Shown: in pieces, positions 9,530 to 16,831 of the stretch
Layout: the number at the start of each line of letters is the position of its first letter
Numbering within the stretch: the stretch's first letter is position 1
From: Escherichia phage BEU33
Reading direction: 5' to 3' (one strand)
Sequence record: OM632667.1
DNA: 44,050 nucleotides
Notes under the pieces: generated by a model
Database searches by the model: none
Seen by the model: the letters and a program-made list of their open reading frames with translations, nothing else
Told to the model about the DNA's origin: nothing
Translations under genes and position numbers: made by a program

Positions 9530-9942
9530 TGGGCTACTTTGAGGACTTAACAAAAGCGTTTGATGTGCCGCTGGTAGCCTTCGGAACCACCAACGGCATC
9601 AAGGTAGCGCTTGAAAACATCGACGCGCCGACGTCAACAGATACGCCGTATCTGGCAAGTTACATGTTGCTGGCGGATACCGAGCAGGCTGACTTATTCT
9701 TCACGGAACAACGCGCCGGTGTCTATCAGATAGACATTAACTACGCATCGGTGAAAGGTAGCGCGCCAATCAATAAAATGGCAGACTTACTTAACACGGC
9801 GTTTAAATCAGGTAAGGCATTTTCGCGTAACGACATCTGCGCCGAGGTTCAATCGGTTAGCCTGGGGCCGCTGATTGTAGAAAACGGATGGGCCAAACGA
9901 CCATTGTCAATTAACTTTATTGCATTCACCAAGAGGCTGTGA
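9526..9942 (+). CDS. tail terminator / tail completion protein
   Basis: Position immediately upstream of major tail protein; no motif verified. Confidence 0.35.
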   Translation: MMGYFEDLTKAFDVPLVAFGTTNGIKVALENIDAPTSTDTPYLASYMLLADTEQADLFFTEQRAGVYQIDINYASVKGSAPINKMADLLNTAFKSGKAFSRNDICAEVQSVSLGPLIVENGWAKRPLSINFIAFTKRL

Positions 9943-9944
9943 AT

Positions 9945-11111
9945 ATGGCTACAACTCCTTTTAAGGGCGCGAATACCGCGCAATTCTATGTGGCGGAAAC
10001 TACCCCGGGCGTAACACCGGCTAACCCTGTCTGGTCGCCGTTGCGTAACACTGGCGGTGTTCCTGCCGTAACCCGCGATGCGCTGACTTCCAACGAACTA
10101 GACGGCAGCCGTGAAACTACATCCATCCGAACCGGTAACAAACAGGTTAGCGGGGAGTACGCCATCGAACTTAGCTCTCGTAGCCAGGATGATTTCCTTG
10201 CGGGAGCGATGACTTCTACGTGGCAAGCTGGGGTAGAGATTACTGGCGCCGAAATTACGGTCGCCCCAGCAGGTAAAACATTCACCCGCGCTGCCGGTAG
10301 CTTCATTACTGACAGTGTAGAAGTTGGCGACCTTATTGCGTTCACCGACTTAACCGGCGACAACGCAAAACCGTTTATCGTGACCGCGGTTTCCGCTCTG
10401 GTAGTTACGGGCGCAGGTATTCAGCACACGCTGACAGCAGAGACAGTAACTACTGACGCAAAAACTGGCGACAAGCTGGAAACCGGTAACGCGTGTAAGA
10501 CGTTCTCCATCCTGACGTGGTTCAAGGGCCAGTGTGGTAACCTGGACGCGTACATGCTGACCAAAGGTGTGGAAATCTCTGGCTTTACCGTAGAGCAGGC
10601 GGTTAACGCCATGGTCACCGGCAGCTTCCCGTTCATCGGCCTGAGTCAGGAGATTCTTACCGCGCCGCCGTCTGGCTCTGATTTCTCTCAGGTTACGTTC
10701 ACCGATGAGCCGTTCTCGTCGGTAGATGTGTCGGTGTTCGATGGCTCCACGCCGTTGCGTTGCGATACTCTCACCATCACCAACGACAACGGAGCTTCCG
10801 CGCAGTTCGAACTCGGTAACAGTAGCGTGGCGTTCGTCGAACGTGGACGCGCAGCTAACACATTCTCTATCTCTGGCAAGCTGTACGACATGGCGATGAT
10901 TCAGAAGTTTATCAACGAGCAGCAGGTAGAGATTAACTCTATTCTGGCAGGGGTAAACGGGGCTATGTCTTTCAGTTTGAAACGTGCAGAGCTTACGGCG
11001 GTTACACCTGAGATTGGTGGGCCTGAGTCAATCACTCAGTCCATTGAAGGCCAGGCTACCGGCAATCAGTACCAGTCGTCTATCGTAATTCAACGTATCA
11101 CCTACGCATAA
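9945..11111 (+). CDS. major tail protein
   Basis: Last gene before the chaperone/tape-measure block, followed by a strong terminator; ATG 9945 with RBS AAGAGG. Confidence 0.55.
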   Translation: MATTPFKGANTAQFYVAETTPGVTPANPVWSPLRNTGGVPAVTRDALTSNELDGSRETTSIRTGNKQVSGEYAIELSSRSQDDFLAGAMTSTWQAGVEITGAEITVAPAGKTFTRAAGSFITDSVEVGDLIAFTDLTGDNAKPFIVTAVSALVVTGAGIQHTLTAETVTTDAKTGDKLETGNACKTFSILTWFKGQCGNLDAYMLTKGVEISGFTVEQAVNAMVTGSFPFIGLSQEILTAPPSGSDFSQVTFTDEPFSSVDVSVFDGSTPLRCDTLTITNDNGASAQFELGNSSVAFVERGRAANTFSISGKLYDMAMIQKFINEQQVEINSILAGVNGAMSFSLKRAELTAVTPEIGGPESITQSIEGQATGNQYQSSIVIQRITYA

Positions 11112-11115
11112 AACT

Positions 11116-11140
11116 AAGGCCCCTTTCGGGGCCTTTTTCT
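11116..11140. terminator. bidirectional terminator AAGGCCCC-tttc-GGGGCCTT
   Basis: GC stem flanked by T-tracts on both strands, between convergent genes. Confidence 0.8.
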
Positions 11141-11694
11141 TACAAACCTAATTTTAAAGCAATGTCTATAACGTTCGATTTAACGTCACCCGGTATGATG
11201 TAGGTGTCGTAATCTTTTACACCACTAACATCGTACAGATAGCCACGGCTATCGCCGATGAACGTATAGCCGTCACGATGGAGGCGGACGATTCGCACGT
11301 CATGCCCCGCGGCGACGATAGGGGCAACTTCACTGGCGAATCCACCGTCGGACACTACAAAAACTTCGTCGCCGTCAGGCAAGTTTTCAGCAAGATACTT
11401 ACCGAAATAATCATCGCCGAATACCGGTTTAATGAATTGCTCAGAAATGGCAATCATTAACTGGCGGCGGGACAACCCATTAAGAAAACCCTCGGGTTTT
11501 TCTTTCCGCGCCCGGTCGTCGTAGCCGTCGAGAAATTCGTGGTAAGCATCCTGGCCTAACGCTGCCAAAGCAATATTGAACATTGGATTCTTGAAACTGG
11601 TAGTTCCTTTCGCAAAGCCCATTTCTACCAGCGCCATAGCAAGCGTGTCTTTCCCGCAACCCGCAGGGCCATTAAGAATAATTACCTTAGCCAT
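11140..11694 (-). CDS. P-loop kinase, deoxynucleoside monophosphate kinase-like
   Basis: Walker A GPAGCGKDT and overall pattern resemble the T4 gp1 dNMP kinase family (from memory). Confidence 0.55.
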   Translation of the reverse strand: MAKVIILNGPAGCGKDTLAMALVEMGFAKGTTSFKNPMFNIALAALGQDAYHEFLDGYDDRARKEKPEGFLNGLSRRQLMIAISEQFIKPVFGDDYFGKYLAENLPDGDEVFVVSDGGFASEVAPIVAAGHDVRIVRLHRDGYTFIGDSRGYLYDVSGVKDYDTYIIPGDVKSNVIDIALKLGL

Positions 11695-12182
11695 TATTTA
11701 TCGCTCCCGTGGGGTTTTAAGTGTGTAGAGTTCCCGTTACAGTCGTATTCGGTAACTGCGTGTGCGGTTATGCCGAGGTCACGGAAATGCTTTATTACCG
11801 CTGGAGAGTCGTCGAACGCACACAAGATTCTTTCCAGTCCGAAAGCACGCAACACCTCTTCTTTAATTACGATGTCTTTTCTGTTGTCGTGTTTGCTGCG
11901 CATGATTAGCGTGTCAAACCTAACGTTATTCTCTCGTAACCATTCGCGAGTCTCCTCCTCAGCGTCATCACTTCGCCCGGTAAGGATAATTATAGTAAGT
12001 CCGGAATGCCACAGTACGCTACACAAATGGATATTGTCGTATATCGGAGCGTCATCTTTGCAGGCCATGTTAAATGGCTTCCACGCCCACGTTTCTCCGT
12101 AGTTATCTTTTGGTAACAGGTGTAAGCGATGGGTACCGTCGGCCAATGTCCCGTCTAAATCGAAAATTACAATATCTTTCAT
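11694..12182 (-). CDS. HAD-superfamily phosphatase, polynucleotide 3'-phosphatase (PNK3P)-like
   Basis: N-terminal DLDGT motif and DNRKDIVIKEE resembling the T4 Pnkp phosphatase domain (from memory). Confidence 0.55.
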   Translation of the reverse strand: MKDIVIFDLDGTLADGTHRLHLLPKDNYGETWAWKPFNMACKDDAPIYDNIHLCSVLWHSGLTIIILTGRSDDAEEETREWLRENNVRFDTLIMRSKHDNRKDIVIKEEVLRAFGLERILCAFDDSPAVIKHFRDLGITAHAVTEYDCNGNSTHLKPHGSDK

Positions 12183-13309
12183 CCCAGCATCTCCGGTGAA
12201 ATAGTTAAACGTGCGACCTCGCCATATTCGGCGCTATAAGTAATTACATTTGCACTGCGGCCCGACATCCATCCGCCGCGAGAGGCGTAGGCGTCTTTAG
12301 CCGCTAAGGTGCGGTGTTGCTCAACAATCATGTTACGGCTTTCTACAATCTTCTGGTGGTGCAGATGGCCTACGTGGGCGTAGCTGTAAACACTCTCGCC
12401 GAACGCTTTACGGAACTTGGCAATCATAACCGGTTCGATAGCGTCGAATCGTGCTTTATGCCCGTGATGGAAGAACAGCGTCGTTTTGCCGTGTTGCACC
12501 ATCTTGTAAACATCCGGCGACGTATCGACGAACACGCGCGGCTCATTGTCGTACAGCGTACTGAACATCTCAGCCAACCAAATCATACCCGATTCGTCGT
12601 GATTCCCTTGCACGATAAGCAAGCGAACATTTTTATGCTTAACCAACGCCATATCAACGACACGGCGGACCATACGAATCATGTAACGGACCAGTTTCTG
12701 ATAGCGCGTGTCAGCGTCAAGGACATGACCGCTTGCGGGCGTAACGGCATCAAGACTATCGAAGTGCGCTAAGTCACCAAGAAGATTGATAACCCCAGTA
12801 CCGGCATCCGGTGCTTTCTGGAATGCTGCATCGAACCAACGAGAGAACAGGTCTTCCGCAATCTTCATGTCCCAGTCGTCGCCGCTCTCGTCGGCCCAGG
12901 CCAGCATACCGAGATGGAAATCGGATACAGTGTAAAGATTGAGCAGCTTATCGTCCCGTTTGGCACGAACGGCTTTAACAGGTGCAACGGGCGTAATCTC
13001 CGATTTCATGCCTTCGATCACGGCTTTCATCAATTCAACCTGACGTTCGGCGTCAGTGTCGGTCTTAACCCATTGCAACTTAGTGTTGCCGAACTCATCC
13101 ACCAGTGACGACGTTCCTTTAATCTTATAGCCGTCCGGGACAAGGTGGCTAACATCACGTCCGTGACCTACACCTTTCTTAGCCAGCTTCGCTTTACGGA
13201 TACGAATTACGCGGTCTGAGATGCCGTATTTACGGGCGATGTCTACATTCTTCATTCCGGCGTTCAATTCTTCCTGTAACTGTTCGTCGGTTATTTTCTT
13301 CCGGGCCAT
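12179..13309 (-). CDS. calcineurin-like metallophosphoesterase with N-terminal HTH domain
   Basis: Motifs SDFHLG, GDLAHFD, GNHDE, HHGH, GHLHH in canonical order; about 115 aa of HTH-like N-terminus. Confidence 0.7.
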   Translation of the reverse strand: MARKKITDEQLQEELNAGMKNVDIARKYGISDRVIRIRKAKLAKKGVGHGRDVSHLVPDGYKIKGTSSLVDEFGNTKLQWVKTDTDAERQVELMKAVIEGMKSEITPVAPVKAVRAKRDDKLLNLYTVSDFHLGMLAWADESGDDWDMKIAEDLFSRWFDAAFQKAPDAGTGVINLLGDLAHFDSLDAVTPASGHVLDADTRYQKLVRYMIRMVRRVVDMALVKHKNVRLLIVQGNHDESGMIWLAEMFSTLYDNEPRVFVDTSPDVYKMVQHGKTTLFFHHGHKARFDAIEPVMIAKFRKAFGESVYSYAHVGHLHHQKIVESRNMIVEQHRTLAAKDAYASRGGWMSGRSANVITYSAEYGEVARLTISPEMLG

Positions 13310-13347
13310 GCTTACTTCCTCGTGTTTAGGATTTGTCTTATAGTAGC

Positions 13348-13566
13348 CTACTTCTCTTTCACGTTCGAGTTACAAGCCCAGATTAAAATGAATACCCACG
13401 GCAACAGAACCCACCCGAGAAATAAGTTAGCCATGAATATCGCTAGCTTTGCTTTATGGTTTCGCATATGGGCCACAAAAAACGGGATAAAATAAACGCC
13501 TACAACAATAATTAAAAAGAACATAGCGATACCGGTCATAACATAACTCCTGATTTGAGATAACAT
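13348..13566 (-). CDS. small membrane protein, superinfection-immunity (Imm)-like
   Basis: Two TM segments; motif RNHKAKLAIFMANLFLGW..WVFILIWA resembles the Imm family signature. Confidence 0.55.
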   Translation of the reverse strand: MLSQIRSYVMTGIAMFFLIIVVGVYFIPFFVAHMRNHKAKLAIFMANLFLGWVLLPWVFILIWACNSNVKEK

Positions 13567-13610: not shown

Positions 13611-13717
13611 GTAGTGTGCTAGAATAATTTTGCGCCTAGTGTCGCACACGAAAAGCGGGTGGTTCCCGTCTGGCGCATTTCCTTTAACCAGTAACCTCTT
13701 AACCAAAGGATTAAAGA

Positions 13718-14134
13718 ATGAAACTTTCTGATTTTTATTACGAAGCGGAAGCCGAAAAGGGCGCACGTATGCCGATACCGCTAAAAGACGGTACTGATTC
13801 CGGGGAATGGCTTAATGTTGTTTCTCCTGAGGCGGACGTTGCCGTTAAGGCTATGCGCGCGTTCACCCTTGCATACCGGGCAGTATTAGGGAAATTAAAA
13901 CCGCTTCGTGATAAGTGCGAAGAGATGAAAGATTTCTCTGAATACAACCTGAAGATGGAAGACGCGGCGACGGACCTTAACCGTCAGTTAGCGATTGAAT
14001 TGGTTAACGGGTGGAGCCTTGACGACGAATTCAATAAAGAGAATCTGAACACACTCCTGACGCAATATAAACGACTCGCGGAACTTGTTGTTGTGTTTCA
14101 TAACGAACAACTGCACCAGCTACAGGAAAAGTAG
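13718..14134 (+). CDS. tail assembly chaperone (G-like)
   Basis: Immediately upstream of tape measure gene; followed by a -1 frame ORF. Confidence 0.55.
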   Translation: MKLSDFYYEAEAEKGARMPIPLKDGTDSGEWLNVVSPEADVAVKAMRAFTLAYRAVLGKLKPLRDKCEEMKDFSEYNLKMEDAATDLNRQLAIELVNGWSLDDEFNKENLNTLLTQYKRLAELVVVFHNEQLHQLQEK

Positions 14135-14499
14135 ACGCGTTGCTCCAGTTCGCCCGTTGGAACTTCATAACCCGCCACAAACGGCGGGAATTTGACAGTA
14201 TCGCCGATGGGCATAAAGCCGCGCTAATTGCTATGGGGGTTATGCAAGACGCGCCGGATGCAACGCAGGCCGCTGGGCCGGAATGCCCCCCTGAGCTATT
14301 AACCACATTTGAGAAGTACAGGGAAATTAAATTCACCCGCCGAGTGGACGACGACGGCATCAAGATGTACCCGCGCGAGCAATTACGATGGTCAGATTTA
14401 GTGGCGTACAGCACCGTTTCAGGCCAGAATATAGGGATGTTCGAATCCGACATCATCATGAGCTTAGACGCTATTTTCGAGGGTAGAAACGATGGCTGA
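14125..14499 (+). CDS. tail assembly chaperone -1 frameshift extension (GT-like fusion with 13718-14134)
   Basis: -1 frame open from 14104; candidate slippery heptamer GGAAAAG at 14125-14131 just before the stop at 14132. Confidence 0.45.
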   Translation, partial: GKVDALLQFARWNFITRHKRREFDSIADGHKAALIAMGVMQDAPDATQAAGPECPPELLTTFEKYREIKFTRRVDDDGIKMYPREQLRWSDLVAYSTVSGQNIGMFESDIIMSLDAIFEGRNDG

Positions 14500-16831
14500 T
14501 GTAGCTAGTTTAGTAGTAAAAGTAACAGAGCAAGGCGCGAAAGCCACATCAGACCGTCTTGACAACCTTTCAAAGTCCGCAAAAGTAGCGGGGGCCGCCG
14601 TAGCAGGCCTTGCTTCTATCGTAGCGGCTACCGCGTATAAAGCTGCCCAAGAACTGGTTGACTCACAGCGGCAACTGGACAAGATGTCCGCCAGTTTGAA
14701 GACCTTAACAGGAAGTACCCAAGGTGCTAAACAGGCGCTAAGTATCCTGCAAGATTTTGCCCGCGATACCCCATACGGACTGGAGCAGGCGGTGGAAGGC
14801 TTCCGTAAGCTGGTGGCCCTTGGCCTTACCCCATCCGAGGAGGCGTTGCGGTCCTACGGCAATACCGCATCGGCTATGGGCAAGGACCTTAATCAGATGA
14901 TTGAGGCGGTAGCCGACGCCAGTACGTTTGAGTTCGAACGCCTAAAAGAATTCGGCATCAAAGCCAAGCAGAACAAAAACGACGTAGAGTTTACATTCCA
15001 GGGGACAACAACCGTAGTTAAGAAAAGCGCTGCCGATATTGAGCAGTATTTACTTAATATTGGTAACGTAAATTTTGCCGGTGCCATGGCGGACCAGGCC
15101 AACACCCTTAATGGCGCTATCGCGAGCGCCAGTGACTCATGGTCGCAGCTAAAAATGACGCTTGCCACCAGTCTTGATGTTGGCGCACTTGCGGAACCTA
15201 TCAGGTATATCGATGACTTGATCCAGGAATTAAACGCGTCTGTTGCTTCCGGTGAATTAGCCGCTGAAATGCAGATGTGGGGCGACATAGCGTCGGAAGT
15301 AGGAAGCGCTATCGAGATGTCATTCGACGCTGCGTTTGGCTTTGTTGGTGATGCCATCAACGGGCTTAATGAACTGTGGGATTTCAGCAGCAAGAGTATT
15401 ACCGATAGCGGAGAACAAACGGCCACCACCATCGCTGAATCCGCCGCCGATGCTCTTGACTTCATCGCGGAAGAGTTCACCGCGATGGAGAGATTCTTTG
15501 AAGATATGGTTAAAGGTGCTCAGGACGCTGGCCGTCTTGTACGCGCCGCTTTTACCCCCGGGGAATCAGTAGACGTAGCTAAAAATATCAACTTCCAGCT
15601 TGGCATGGCTTTGGATACCCAGCGCGATGTCGCCGACGTTACGCGTAAAAGTTTCCGCGAACAGGTAGAAGCTCAACAGGATATTGTAGCGTTAAAACGC
15701 GCGGCGTATGACATCGATAAGGAGTCCGCAAAAGCTGAGGGGTTAAACAAATTTAAGGTAACCGGAACCGGCGGCGGTTCTGACGATGACGGGTCAGCCG
15801 CAAAAGCCGCTAAGAAAGCAGCGGACGCGTTCGAGCGCCAGAAAAAGGCGGCGGAAGACTTCTACTATCAGTCAATCCATCTTAATGATGACGTATTTCA
15901 GAAAATAGAAGCTAACCAGGAAGAGCAACTGTCTAAGTTGCAGGATTTTTATAGCAATAAGCTTCTTAGCGACCAACAGTACGAAAACGCCAAGACGCAG
16001 ATTATGCTCTCTGCCGAACAGGCCCGCCAGGAAGAACTGGACAAGAAAAGGAAAGAAGCCCAGGAGAAGCAGCAGAAAGGTGATGATTTCATGGCTCAGA
16101 TTATGGGCCAGAACGCCGCTGAGCTTGAGCTTCTCGACATCCAGGAACAGCAGAAACTGGCGGTCGCAGATAAGTACCGTGAGCAAGGGCTTATTAGTGA
16201 GAAGCAGTATCAGGCTGCGCTTAATGCCATCAACGAGCAGTACGCCACGAAGCGTGCCGACGCAACGGCAACGGCCTTCGGTAACATGGCCTCAAACATC
16301 GGGTCTGCGTTGGGCGAAGCCTCTGGTGCGTATAAGGCATTCGCTATCGTACAGGCCACCATAGCCACTTACACCGCGGCTATCGAGGCGTACAAGTCCA
16401 CGGCGGCTATCCCTGTAGTTGGCCCATTCCTGGCTCCTGTAGCTGCCGCCGCTGCCGTTGGGGCGGGTATGGCGCAGATTTCCGCTATCAGGTCCGCACG
16501 TGAACAGGGCGGACAGTTATCCGCGGGGCAGGCTTCAACCATCGCCGAACGCGGTAAACCAGAAGTTATCATGCCCGCTGGTGCGTCACGTGTACGCACC
16601 GCACAGCAGATGAAAGAAATTATGGGGCAAAACGGGTCTTCTTCCGGACCGTCTAATGTTACTATCGTAAACAACACGAGTTCTCAAATCGGCAACGTAT
16701 CCACTGAGCAAGATGATGAAGGCCGTTTGCGTATCATCATCGAGGAGCAAGTGGCTGCCTCTTTGCAGAACAGTAACAGTAAGATTAGCAAGGCCCGCAA
16801 GGCCACAAGAAATGCGCCGGGGTTTAAATAA
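14492..16831 (+). CDS. tail tape measure protein
   Basis: 779-aa A/Q/E-rich helical-looking protein after the chaperone pair. Confidence 0.8.
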   Translation: MADVASLVVKVTEQGAKATSDRLDNLSKSAKVAGAAVAGLASIVAATAYKAAQELVDSQRQLDKMSASLKTLTGSTQGAKQALSILQDFARDTPYGLEQAVEGFRKLVALGLTPSEEALRSYGNTASAMGKDLNQMIEAVADASTFEFERLKEFGIKAKQNKNDVEFTFQGTTTVVKKSAADIEQYLLNIGNVNFAGAMADQANTLNGAIASASDSWSQLKMTLATSLDVGALAEPIRYIDDLIQELNASVASGELAAEMQMWGDIASEVGSAIEMSFDAAFGFVGDAINGLNELWDFSSKSITDSGEQTATTIAESAADALDFIAEEFTAMERFFEDMVKGAQDAGRLVRAAFTPGESVDVAKNINFQLGMALDTQRDVADVTRKSFREQVEAQQDIVALKRAAYDIDKESAKAEGLNKFKVTGTGGGSDDDGSAAKAAKKAADAFERQKKAAEDFYYQSIHLNDDVFQKIEANQEEQLSKLQDFYSNKLLSDQQYENAKTQIMLSAEQARQEELDKKRKEAQEKQQKGDDFMAQIMGQNAAELELLDIQEQQKLAVADKYREQGLISEKQYQAALNAINEQYATKRADATATAFGNMASNIGSALGEASGAYKAFAIVQATIATYTAAIEAYKSTAAIPVVGPFLAPVAAAAAVGAGMAQISAIRSAREQGGQLSAGQASTIAERGKPEVIMPAGASRVRTAQQMKEIMGQNGSSSGPSNVTIVNNTSSQIGNVSTEQDDEGRLRIIIEEQVAASLQNSNSKISKARKATRNAPGFK

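What the first reader, a model, noticed from the sequence alone, without database searches (positions are those of the whole stretch)
14104..14140. Probable -1 programmed frameshift joining tail chaperone ORFs
The chaperone ORF ends at TAG 14132-14134, and the -1 frame is open from 14104 into the 14140-14499 ORF. The heptamer GGAAAAG at 14125-14131 sits immediately before the stop, where a ribosomal pause would favour slippage. This matches the conserved G/GT arrangement upstream of tape measure genes, though the heptamer is a variant of the lambda GGGAAAG site.
Basis: partly seen in the sequence, partly recalled or inferred. Interest (0 to 1): 0.4.

Follow-up and report, generated by a model that had tools for sequence, protein, structure and literature searches.

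The report
Tail chaperone -1 frameshift, structured stimulator
This is the expected lambda-like programmed -1 ribosomal frameshift that fuses the two tail-assembly chaperone reading frames of a Kagunavirus phage. It is ordinary in kind and already annotated in some relatives, but its signals are a non-canonical A_AAG site, an adjacent stop codon and a previously undescribed conserved long-range RNA helix.

Summary
The window is a Kagunavirus phage (100% identical to Escherichia phage BEU35 over the 1,201-base query).

- **Reading frames.** G (13718-14134) ends in GGAAAAG-TAG. The -1 frame is open from 14104 and runs to 14499, just before the tape measure gene.
- **Frameshifting is strongly supported by comparison.** In about 35 junction variants, down to 43% protein identity, A_AAG followed by TAA or TAG is invariant. 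The heptamer and the TTG "start" are not.
- **No conserved start for T.** Most distant lineages have no start codon before codon 34 (a few have GTG/TTG at codons 4-12), yet the protein is conserved from codon 1.
- **Frozen synonymous sites.** Synonymous variation across the whole GT coding region is lowest exactly at the junction.
- **Already deposited.** The predicted fusion (...QEK|VDAL...) exists in GenBank for close relatives (fFiEco03, Shelanagig).
- **New here.** Five bases after the slip site, a 10-bp helix (14137-14146 with 14256-14266) closes a roughly 130-nt three-way junction. It is conserved with compensatory changes, and a second clade pairs the same 5' arm with a different distant partner.

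Verdict: a real, ordinary G/GT frameshift with non-canonical, partly new signals. No experimental proof exists.

The parts
13718..14134 (+). Gene G: tail assembly chaperone, 138 aa, 15.9 kDa, the zero-frame product
   Evidence: ORF. Pfam Phage_TAC_4 scores 32.5 bits against a cut-off of 21.1. phrog_15027 positions 1-138, E 2e-50. Mass.
14104..14131 (+). Overlap in which the -1 frame is open and the shift must occur
   Evidence: TAA at 14101-14103 in the -1 frame. In relatives L075 and L080 this overlap shrinks to 7 nt (C_GCA_AAG), which pins the shift to the last two codons.
14125..14131 (+). Slip site G_GAA_AAG. The conserved core is A_AAG at 14128-14131; tRNA-Lys re-pairs from AAG to AAA.
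   Evidence: A_AAG is invariant in all 62 distinct viral-contig sequences and in the metagenome loci. The preceding codon varies (GAA, GCA, GGA, GTA, CAA) but always ends in A. Lys is always AAG, never AAA.
14132..14136 (+). 5-nt spacer UAGAC, containing the zero-frame stop TAG (14132-14134)
   Evidence: The stop sits immediately 3' of A_AAG in every junction variant but one (carried by L078 and L133). It is always TAG or TAA and never TGA, although TGA would be silent in the -1 frame.
14123..14142 (+). Island of frozen synonymous sites (fused codons 136-142)
   Evidence: The synonymous difference rate is 0.09 here against 0.53 overall. This is the lowest of 247 seven-codon windows across the GT coding region.
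14137..14146 (+). 5' arm of closing helix P1 (GCGUUGCUCC); it covers the TTG at 14140 that annotators use as a start
   Evidence: Pairing probability 0.91-0.99. Present in the MFE fold. Covariation.
14256..14266 (+). 3' arm of helix P1 (GGA-U-GCAACGC, with U14259 bulged), inside the variable linker of T
   Evidence: It is the best duplex partner of the arm over the scanned stretch, about -330 nt to 60 nt past the T stop (-17.5 kcal/mol). There are 41 distinct sequences, 88% of cells paired against 15-53% when the partner is slid, five pairs with compensatory changes, and 0 of 500 shuffles reaching the observed value.
14152..14254 (+). Two inner sub-domains (14152-14212 and 14221-14254) enclosed by P1, giving a roughly 130-nt three-way junction
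   Evidence: MFE -55.9 kcal/mol, z-score -2.1. The inner helices are conserved only within the Kagunavirus/Jerseyvirus clade.
14131..14499 (+). T segment, read in the -1 frame. GT = join(13718..14131, 14131..14499), 260 aa, 29.8 kDa.
   Evidence: Pfam Phage_TAC_18 scores 66.9 bits against a cut-off of 27. phrog_15027 positions 136-259. The identical fusion is deposited for relatives. Mass.
14492..16831 (+). Tape measure protein gene; its ATG overlaps the T stop (ATGGCTGA)
   Evidence: phrog_1538, E 5e-205. Sequence.
9939..11111 (+). Tail tube gene, the upstream boundary of the tail module
   Evidence: Pfam Phage_tube_2, E 5e-38.

Best explanation
A minority of ribosomes translating chaperone gene G slip back one base when tRNA-Lys on AAG (14129-14131) re-pairs with AAA (14128-14130). 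They then read GUA GAC GCG... and continue to 14499. This makes a 260-aa GT fusion alongside the abundant 138-aa G.

The slip is probably promoted by a stable 10-bp helix that begins 5 nt downstream (14137-14146 with 14256-14266) and closes a roughly 130-nt three-way junction. The zero-frame UAG sits in the spacer and may add a pause.

By analogy with lambda, G and the G part of GT coat the tape measure protein, and the T part recruits the tail tube protein.

Shown here: the anatomy, the conservation, the covariation and the family memberships. Inferred: that slippage occurs, its efficiency, the roles of the helix and the stop, and the assembly function.
For: 1. **Gene order and families.** The order is tube, G, T, tape measure, and both chaperone halves pass the Pfam gathering thresholds.
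2. **Conserved slip site.** A_AAG plus TAR is invariant in about 35 junction variants down to 43% identity. The heptamer, the upstream sequence and the length of the -1 overlap (7-205 nt) all vary.
3. **Forced third base.** The third base of the preceding codon is always A, across Glu, Ala, Gly, Val and Gln codons.
4. **Canonical sites in relatives.** Two lineages have the lambda heptamer G_GGA_AAG at the same spot (L059; L136). A 32%-identical relative has T_TTT_TTC in the correct register.
5. **No conserved start for T.** The TTG is CTG in most lineages, and in most distant lineages the first start codon is codon 34 (a few have GTG/TTG at codons 4-12), although the protein is conserved from codon 1.
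6. **Synonymous-rate minimum** at codons 136-142.
7. **Helix P1.** It is the best partner in almost every lineage, with probability 0.7-1.0. Group A has 88% of cells paired, five compensatory pairs and 0 of 500 shuffles, and RNAalifold finds the helix unconstrained. Group B pairs the same arm with a different partner at stop+199 to +209.
8. **Precedent for the motif.** A_AAG is the most shift-prone tetramer in E. coli, reaching 5.6% with a stimulator but near background without one (PMC4066793).
9. **Prior annotation.** The identical fusion is annotated in fFiEco03, fPoEco01, fTaEco01 and Shelanagig.
Against: - I found no experimental evidence (mass spectrometry, reporter assay or western blot) for any member of this clade.
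- G_GAA_AAG is not a canonical X_XXY_YYZ site. The Shashou genome announcement, on the same junction sequence, states there is no canonical slippery sequence.
- Most GenBank records, including RefSeq Golestan, annotate two separate genes.
- The helix loop is long (about 110 nt, or about 170 nt in group B), so kinetic formation ahead of the ribosome is unproven.
- The inner sub-domains are not conserved outside the clade.
- Sequences in the covariation tests are related, so the shuffle counts are not probabilities.
- A few lineages (L082, L114, L115, L144) have weaker or ambiguous partners.
Confidence: 0.85

Rival explanations
1. T is a separate gene translated from the TTG at 14140, as most GenBank records annotate. 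This would give two independent proteins and no fusion.
For: A TTG is present at 14140, with AGGA at 14124-14127 lying 12 nt upstream. Golestan, S532, UTEC10, Psm140 and Shashou annotate it this way.
Against: The TTG is CTG in most other lineages, where in most lineages the first start codon is codon 34 inside a conserved motif. No Shine-Dalgarno sequence exists in the GCAAAG lineages. Gene callers give inconsistent starts, producing products of 105-122 aa. The TTG is buried in helix P1 with probability 0.98. This model does not explain the invariance of A_AAG.
Confidence: 0.05
2. The frameshift is real, but it is driven mainly by slow termination. With AAG in the P site and UAG in the A site, peptidyl-tRNA-Lys slips back (a 'shifty stop'). 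On this reading the long-range helix serves another purpose, such as mRNA stability, masking of the internal TTG, or coupling to tape measure translation.
For: The stop is adjacent to A_AAG in all junction variants but one and is never TGA. 'Shifty stops' and a stop-dependent -1 frameshift in pea enation mosaic virus RNA 2 are established (PMC5009743).
Against: The 5' arm keeps a fixed 5-nt spacing from the slip site while its partner has moved between clades. That pattern is expected for a frameshift stimulator. A_AAG alone is near background in E. coli. In L078 and L133 the stop lies one codon further downstream, yet A_AAG and the helix are retained.
Confidence: 0.2
3. Transcriptional slippage: RNA polymerase adds one A in the A-run, producing an mRNA that encodes the same fusion.
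For: Inserting one A in GGAAAAG would give the same protein sequence (sequence logic).
Against: The run is only 4 A, and 3 A in the GCAAAG lineages. That is far shorter than the runs known to support slippage (general knowledge). This model does not explain why Lys is always AAG, nor the downstream helix.
Confidence: 0.02
4. Termination at the TAG is followed by re-initiation at the nearby YTG codon, giving a separate T protein at a low level.
For: The Leu codon at 14140-14142 is restricted to TTG or CTG in all lineages. Both are NTG codons lying 5 nt after the stop.
Against: CTG is a very poor start codon. The restriction to YTG is explained by pairing in helix P1 (columns 21-23 with 142-144, where CG and UA covary). 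An unfused T would lack the G domain needed in the lambda model.
Confidence: 0.03

Closest known systems
Phage lambda G/GT tail assembly chaperone -1 frameshift (Levin 1993; Xu, Hendrix and Duda 2004, 2013, 2014; summarised in PMC5009743)
   Same: Two overlapping ORFs lie directly upstream of the tape measure gene. The second ORF is in the -1 frame with no start of its own. The slip ends in A_AAG, decoded by tRNA-Lys. The result is a short abundant product and a rare fusion. Lambda's site G_GGA_AAG differs from this one by a single base and occurs in two sister lineages (L059, L136).
   Different: Here the site is G_GAA_AAG, or simply NNA_AAG in relatives. The stop codon directly follows it. 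A conserved 10-13 bp helix starts 5 nt downstream. From my own knowledge, which I did not check here, lambda's site is not reported to need a structure. The G and T proteins belong to different Pfam families (Phage_TAC_4 and Phage_TAC_18). Four reverse-strand genes separate the tube gene from G.
NNA_AAG hexanucleotide / A_AAG tetranucleotide -1 sites (IS1222 G_CGA_AAG; Bacillus subtilis cdd A_CGA_AAG; Licznar 2003, Sharma 2014)
   Same: Only the A-site Lys tRNA can re-pair cognately. Efficiency depends on the 5' codon and on a 3' stimulator. A_AAG is the best tetramer in E. coli.
   Different: The genes are different (a phage structural chaperone, not a transposase or deaminase). The P-site codon here is GAA, GCA, GGA or GUA rather than CGA. 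The stop codon lies inside the spacer.
IS911 three-way-junction stimulator, and bipartite or long-range stimulators (IS3-family pseudoknots with the second element 44-104 nt away; the T7 gene 10 effect over more than 200 nt; barley yellow dwarf virus)
   Same: The 3' stimulator is not a simple local hairpin. It is a multi-branched or long-range structure whose first helix begins a few bases after the slip site (PMC5009743).
   Different: Here a plain closing helix spans about 110 nt (group A) or about 170 nt (group B) of coding sequence. The 3' partner has moved between clades while the 5' arm stayed fixed. No loop-loop pseudoknot was detected or tested.

Membership tests
Lambda-type G/GT tail assembly chaperone with programmed frameshift | Two overlapping ORFs between the major tail (tube) gene and the tape measure gene | tested here: met
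   The order is tube 9939-11111, G 13718-14134, T to 14499, tape measure 14492-16831. Caveat: an inverted four-gene cassette (11140-13566) lies between the tube gene and G.
Lambda-type G/GT tail assembly chaperone with programmed frameshift | The second ORF is in the -1 frame and has no conserved start codon or ribosome-binding site of its own | tested here: met
   Frames confirmed. The TTG at 14140 is CTG in most lineages, and the first start there is usually codon 34, although conservation begins at codon 1.
Lambda-type G/GT tail assembly chaperone with programmed frameshift | A conserved slippery sequence in the overlap, in the correct register | tested here: met
   A_AAG is in register and invariant. 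The strict X_XXY_YYZ form is not met in the window (G_GAA_AAG), but it is met in L059 and L136 (G_GGA_AAG).
Lambda-type G/GT tail assembly chaperone with programmed frameshift | Sequence homology of both parts to known tail assembly chaperone families | tested here: met
   Pfam Phage_TAC_4 (32.5 bits, cut-off 21.1) and Phage_TAC_18 (66.9 bits, cut-off 27). phrog_15027 spans both halves. No solved structure is related by sequence.
Lambda-type G/GT tail assembly chaperone with programmed frameshift | Both G and GT are made at a fixed ratio, and GT is required for tail assembly | not testable with these tools
   I found no proteomic or genetic data for this clade in the paper library.
Z_ZZN / NNA_AAG single-tRNA -1 shift sites with a 3' stimulator | A_AAG in the zero frame, in a host with a single tRNA-Lys (UUU) | tested here: met
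   Motif shown. The host is E. coli. The single tRNA-Lys of E. coli is stated in PMC5009743.
Z_ZZN / NNA_AAG single-tRNA -1 shift sites with a 3' stimulator | A stimulatory RNA structure starting 5-9 nt 3' of the motif, supported by covariation | tested here: met
   Helix P1 starts 5 nt after the motif. Its function as a stimulator is inferred and was not measured.

The most novel reading that the evidence does not exclude
Guernseyvirinae-like phages may use a distinct frameshift cassette in place of lambda's structure-independent heptamer. It would consist of a bare A_AAG slip site, the zero-frame stop held inside a fixed 5-nt spacer, and a long-range closing helix whose 5' arm is frozen while its 3' partner has jumped between positions about +126 and +199 in different clades. 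If so, the helix is the main determinant of the G:GT ratio, and more than 300 deposited genomes that annotate two separate genes are mis-annotated.
Probability: 0.55. Interest if true: 0.45.

Novelty: new member of a known kind. Interest (0 to 1): 0.3.

Why it matters
**Annotation.** This settles a conflict in the literature. The same junction sequence was described as lacking a slippery sequence (Shashou) and as having one (Shelanagig). Most of the roughly 330 related phage records call T a separate gene or a hypothetical protein. The correct annotation is join(13718..14131,14131..14499).

**Mechanism.** If confirmed, the family gives a natural comparative series. The same slip site and 5' arm occur with two or three alternative distant partners, and occasionally with an upgrade to the canonical heptamer. 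That series could show how a weak tetramer site is tuned by RNA structure and an adjacent stop codon. These phages are also therapy candidates, so correct structural-gene models have practical value.

Tried and rejected
- **Local hairpins.** The hairpin CCCGCC...GGCGGG (14171-14188) and the 9-bp stem 14152-14160/14204-14212 start 20-40 nt downstream. They are not conserved outside the clade, so they are not the primary stimulator.
- **First consensus folds were negative.** RNAalifold on mixed lineages found nothing (-4.4 and -1.8 kcal/mol). This was misleading, because the two clades use different 3' partners. Splitting them revealed the helix.
- **Upstream Shine-Dalgarno-like stimulator.** AGGA overlaps the site only in some lineages, and nothing is conserved 10-14 nt upstream.
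- **Readthrough of the TAG.** The zero frame stops again 11 codons later, and T is in the -1 frame.
- **Other slippery motifs in the overlap.** None exist. In L075 and L080 the overlap is only 7 nt.
- **Solved-structure search with the GT profile.** No meaningful hit.
- **Homologue search with the T segment.** Only 10 clusters, all short separate-gene calls.
- **Anany 2015 (Jerseyvirinae) and Licznar 2003.** Neither paper is held in the library.
- **Structure prediction.** Not attempted, because the fused sequence and the locus-derived alignments are not accepted by that tool.

Full report
**Identity of the window.** The 1.2 kb around the finding is 100% identical to Escherichia phage BEU35 and 99.5-99.7% identical to phiEc3, Golestan and other Kagunavirus phages (Guernseyvirinae). 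Salmonella Jerseyvirus phages match at about 80-90%. The rest of the window holds ordinary siphovirus genes: terminase, portal-region genes, tube, tape measure, DNA polymerase and helicase-type proteins.

**The observation.** All coordinates are right.
- G (13718-14134, 138 aa) ends CAG GAA AAG TAG.
- The -1 frame has a TAA at 14101-14103 and is then open to the TGA at 14497-14499.
- The tape measure ATG (14492) overlaps that stop.
- G matches Pfam Phage_TAC_4, and the -1 frame product matches Pfam Phage_TAC_18. Both are above their gathering cut-offs.
- In PHROGs, G matches positions 1-138 and the -1 product matches positions 136-259 of a single 259-position "tail assembly chaperone" family. 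Fused proteins are therefore already in that family, and they join at Lys138.
- This is the only one of 157 long ORFs in the window that ends A_AAG plus stop.

**Is it a frameshift?** I collected relatives from viral contigs, metagenomes and GenBank phages. This gave about 35 different junction sequences, with G identity down to 43%.
- In every one the zero frame ends NNA_AAG followed directly by TAG or TAA. The single exception is the junction variant carried by L078 and L133, where the stop lies one codon later.
- The codon before Lys encodes Glu, Ala, Gly, Val or Gln but always ends in A. Lys is always AAG.
- The -1 overlap varies from 205 nt down to 7 nt (C_GCA_AAG in L075 and L080). This confines the shift to these two codons.
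- Two lineages carry lambda's canonical G_GGA_AAG at this spot (L059, L136).
- A 32%-identical relative has T_TTT_TTC in the correct register, 37 nt before its stop.
- The TTG at 14140, used as a start by most annotators, is CTG in most lineages. In most of those lineages the first possible start is codon 34 (a few have GTG or TTG at codons 4-12), yet the protein is conserved from the first -1 codon: V-x-A-L-x-x-F/Y-A-x-W.
- Across 14 representatives, synonymous differences among same-residue pairs average 0.53 but fall to 0.09 at fused codons 136-142. That is the lowest of 247 windows.

Together these results exclude independent initiation as the conserved mode of T expression. They point to a -1 slip of tRNA-Lys from AAG to AAA.

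**The signals.** G_GAA_AAG is not a canonical heptamer, because the P-site Glu tRNA would re-pair with a middle G.U. The review by Atkins et al. lists G_GA-type first halves as known intermediates, and NNA_AAG as a known hexanucleotide class found in IS1222 and B. subtilis cdd (PMC5009743). Sharma et al. found A_AAG to be the best tetramer in E. coli. It reached 5.6% with a pseudoknot but stayed near background without a stimulator (PMC4066793). A stimulator is therefore expected.

My first consensus folds found none. However, the frozen synonymous sites extend 11 nt beyond the slip site (GCG YUG). A scan for complements of that segment showed a partner in nearly every lineage, at one of two places.

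In the window, 14137-14146 (GCGUUGCUCC) pairs with 14256-14266 (GGA-U-GCAACGC).
- The duplex energy is -17.5 kcal/mol.
- The helix is in the minimum-energy fold of both a 144-nt and a 400-nt context.
- Its pairing probability is 0.91-0.99.
- It closes a three-way junction of about 130 nt.
- The spacer between A_AAG and the helix is 5 nt (UAGAC) and contains the zero-frame stop.

**Covariation.**
- *Group A* comprises Kagunavirus, Jerseyvirus and relatives: 41 distinct sequences in an ungapped alignment. The helix has 88% of cells paired, against 15-53% when the partner is slid. Five pairs show changes on both sides, for example GCGUUG/CAACGC against GCGCUG/CAGCGC, and UUUC/GAAA against UAC/GUG. 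No shuffle out of 500 reaches the observed covariation. RNAalifold recovers the helix without constraints.
- *Group B* (36 sequences) pairs the same 5' arm with a different partner, at stop+199 to +209. The helix is up to 13-14 bp. It has 86% of cells paired against 17-47% slid, and compensatory sets such as UAC/GUA, UAU/AUA and UUG/CAA.
- The 3' arm of group A lies in a hypervariable protein linker, yet its nucleotides are conserved.
- A fixed 5' arm at canonical spacing, with a 3' partner that has relocated, is the pattern expected if selection acts on a structure placed just ahead of a ribosome sitting on the slip site.
- These tests use related sequences, so the shuffle counts are indicative and not probabilities. 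A few lineages (L082, L114, L115, L144) have weaker or ambiguous partners.

**What is known already.** The fusion is annotated as a joined CDS in fFiEco03, fPoEco01 and fTaEco01. The exact product I predicted for two relatives is deposited (QNO11663.1 and Shelanagig QEG07365.1). The Shelanagig announcement says the phage has the slippery sequence (PMC6763656). The Shashou announcement says there is no canonical slippery sequence (PMC6776780), although its junction sequence is identical. RefSeq Golestan and many other records list two separate genes. I found no experimental test and no description of the helix.

**Verdict.** The feature is a genuine but ordinary member of the G/GT frameshift class. 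The added value lies in three points. The conserved slip element is A_AAG rather than the heptamer. The stop is part of a fixed 5-nt spacer. A conserved long-range helix, not a local hairpin, is the likely stimulator.
- Probability that GT is made by -1 frameshifting: about 0.9.
- Probability that the helix stimulates it: about 0.6-0.7.
- Probability that the adjacent stop contributes: about 0.4.

Noticed in passing
window 13629-13693 (+): There is a gathering-level Rfam match to the int-alpA RNA motif (RF02996; 36.6 bits against a cut-off of 35.8). It lies in the 151-nt divergent intergenic region just upstream of the G start codon. The match has two inner hairpins, a closing stem and a U-rich tail. 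It may be a leader element of the late tail operon.
   Followed up: partly
window 11140-13566 (-): The tail module is interrupted between the tube gene and G by four reverse-strand genes. They encode an unknown protein, a HAD/PNKP-type phosphatase, a metallophosphoesterase and an Imm-type superinfection immunity protein. The same layout is present in Golestan, Shashou and the Finnish Kagunavirus phages.
   Followed up: partly
L059 1903-2064; L136 (junction): Two relatives have converted GAA to GGA, creating lambda's canonical G_GGA_AAG heptamer at the same position. Both keep the adjacent stop codon, and L059 keeps the downstream helix (L136 is cut off too soon after the stop for this to be checked).
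   Followed up: yes
window about 14270-14295, and the same position in most relatives (e.g. L027 stop+140 to +160): The conserved protein motif GPECP is encoded by a sequence that forms a strong hairpin in many lineages (GGGGCC-NNNNNN-GCCCC). I did not test whether this is an RNA-level feature or a by-product of the codons.
   Followed up: no
L114, L115, L136 (G of 143 aa): A third group with a longer G may pair the same 5' arm with yet another partner, near stop+230 to +245 (GUAC-GCGC). The prediction is ambiguous.
   Followed up: partly
all junctions: The zero-frame stop is always TAG or TAA and never TGA. TGA would be silent in the -1 frame (GUA to GUG, both Val). This may hint at a requirement for release factor 1 or for that base.
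   Followed up: no
L150 (Taishania pollutisoli draft genome, contig NZ_JACVEL010000023.1): A 93%-identical Jerseyvirus-like G/T locus sits on a 13-kb contig of a Bacteroidota genome assembly. This is probably contamination by an enterobacterial phage rather than a prophage.
   Followed up: no
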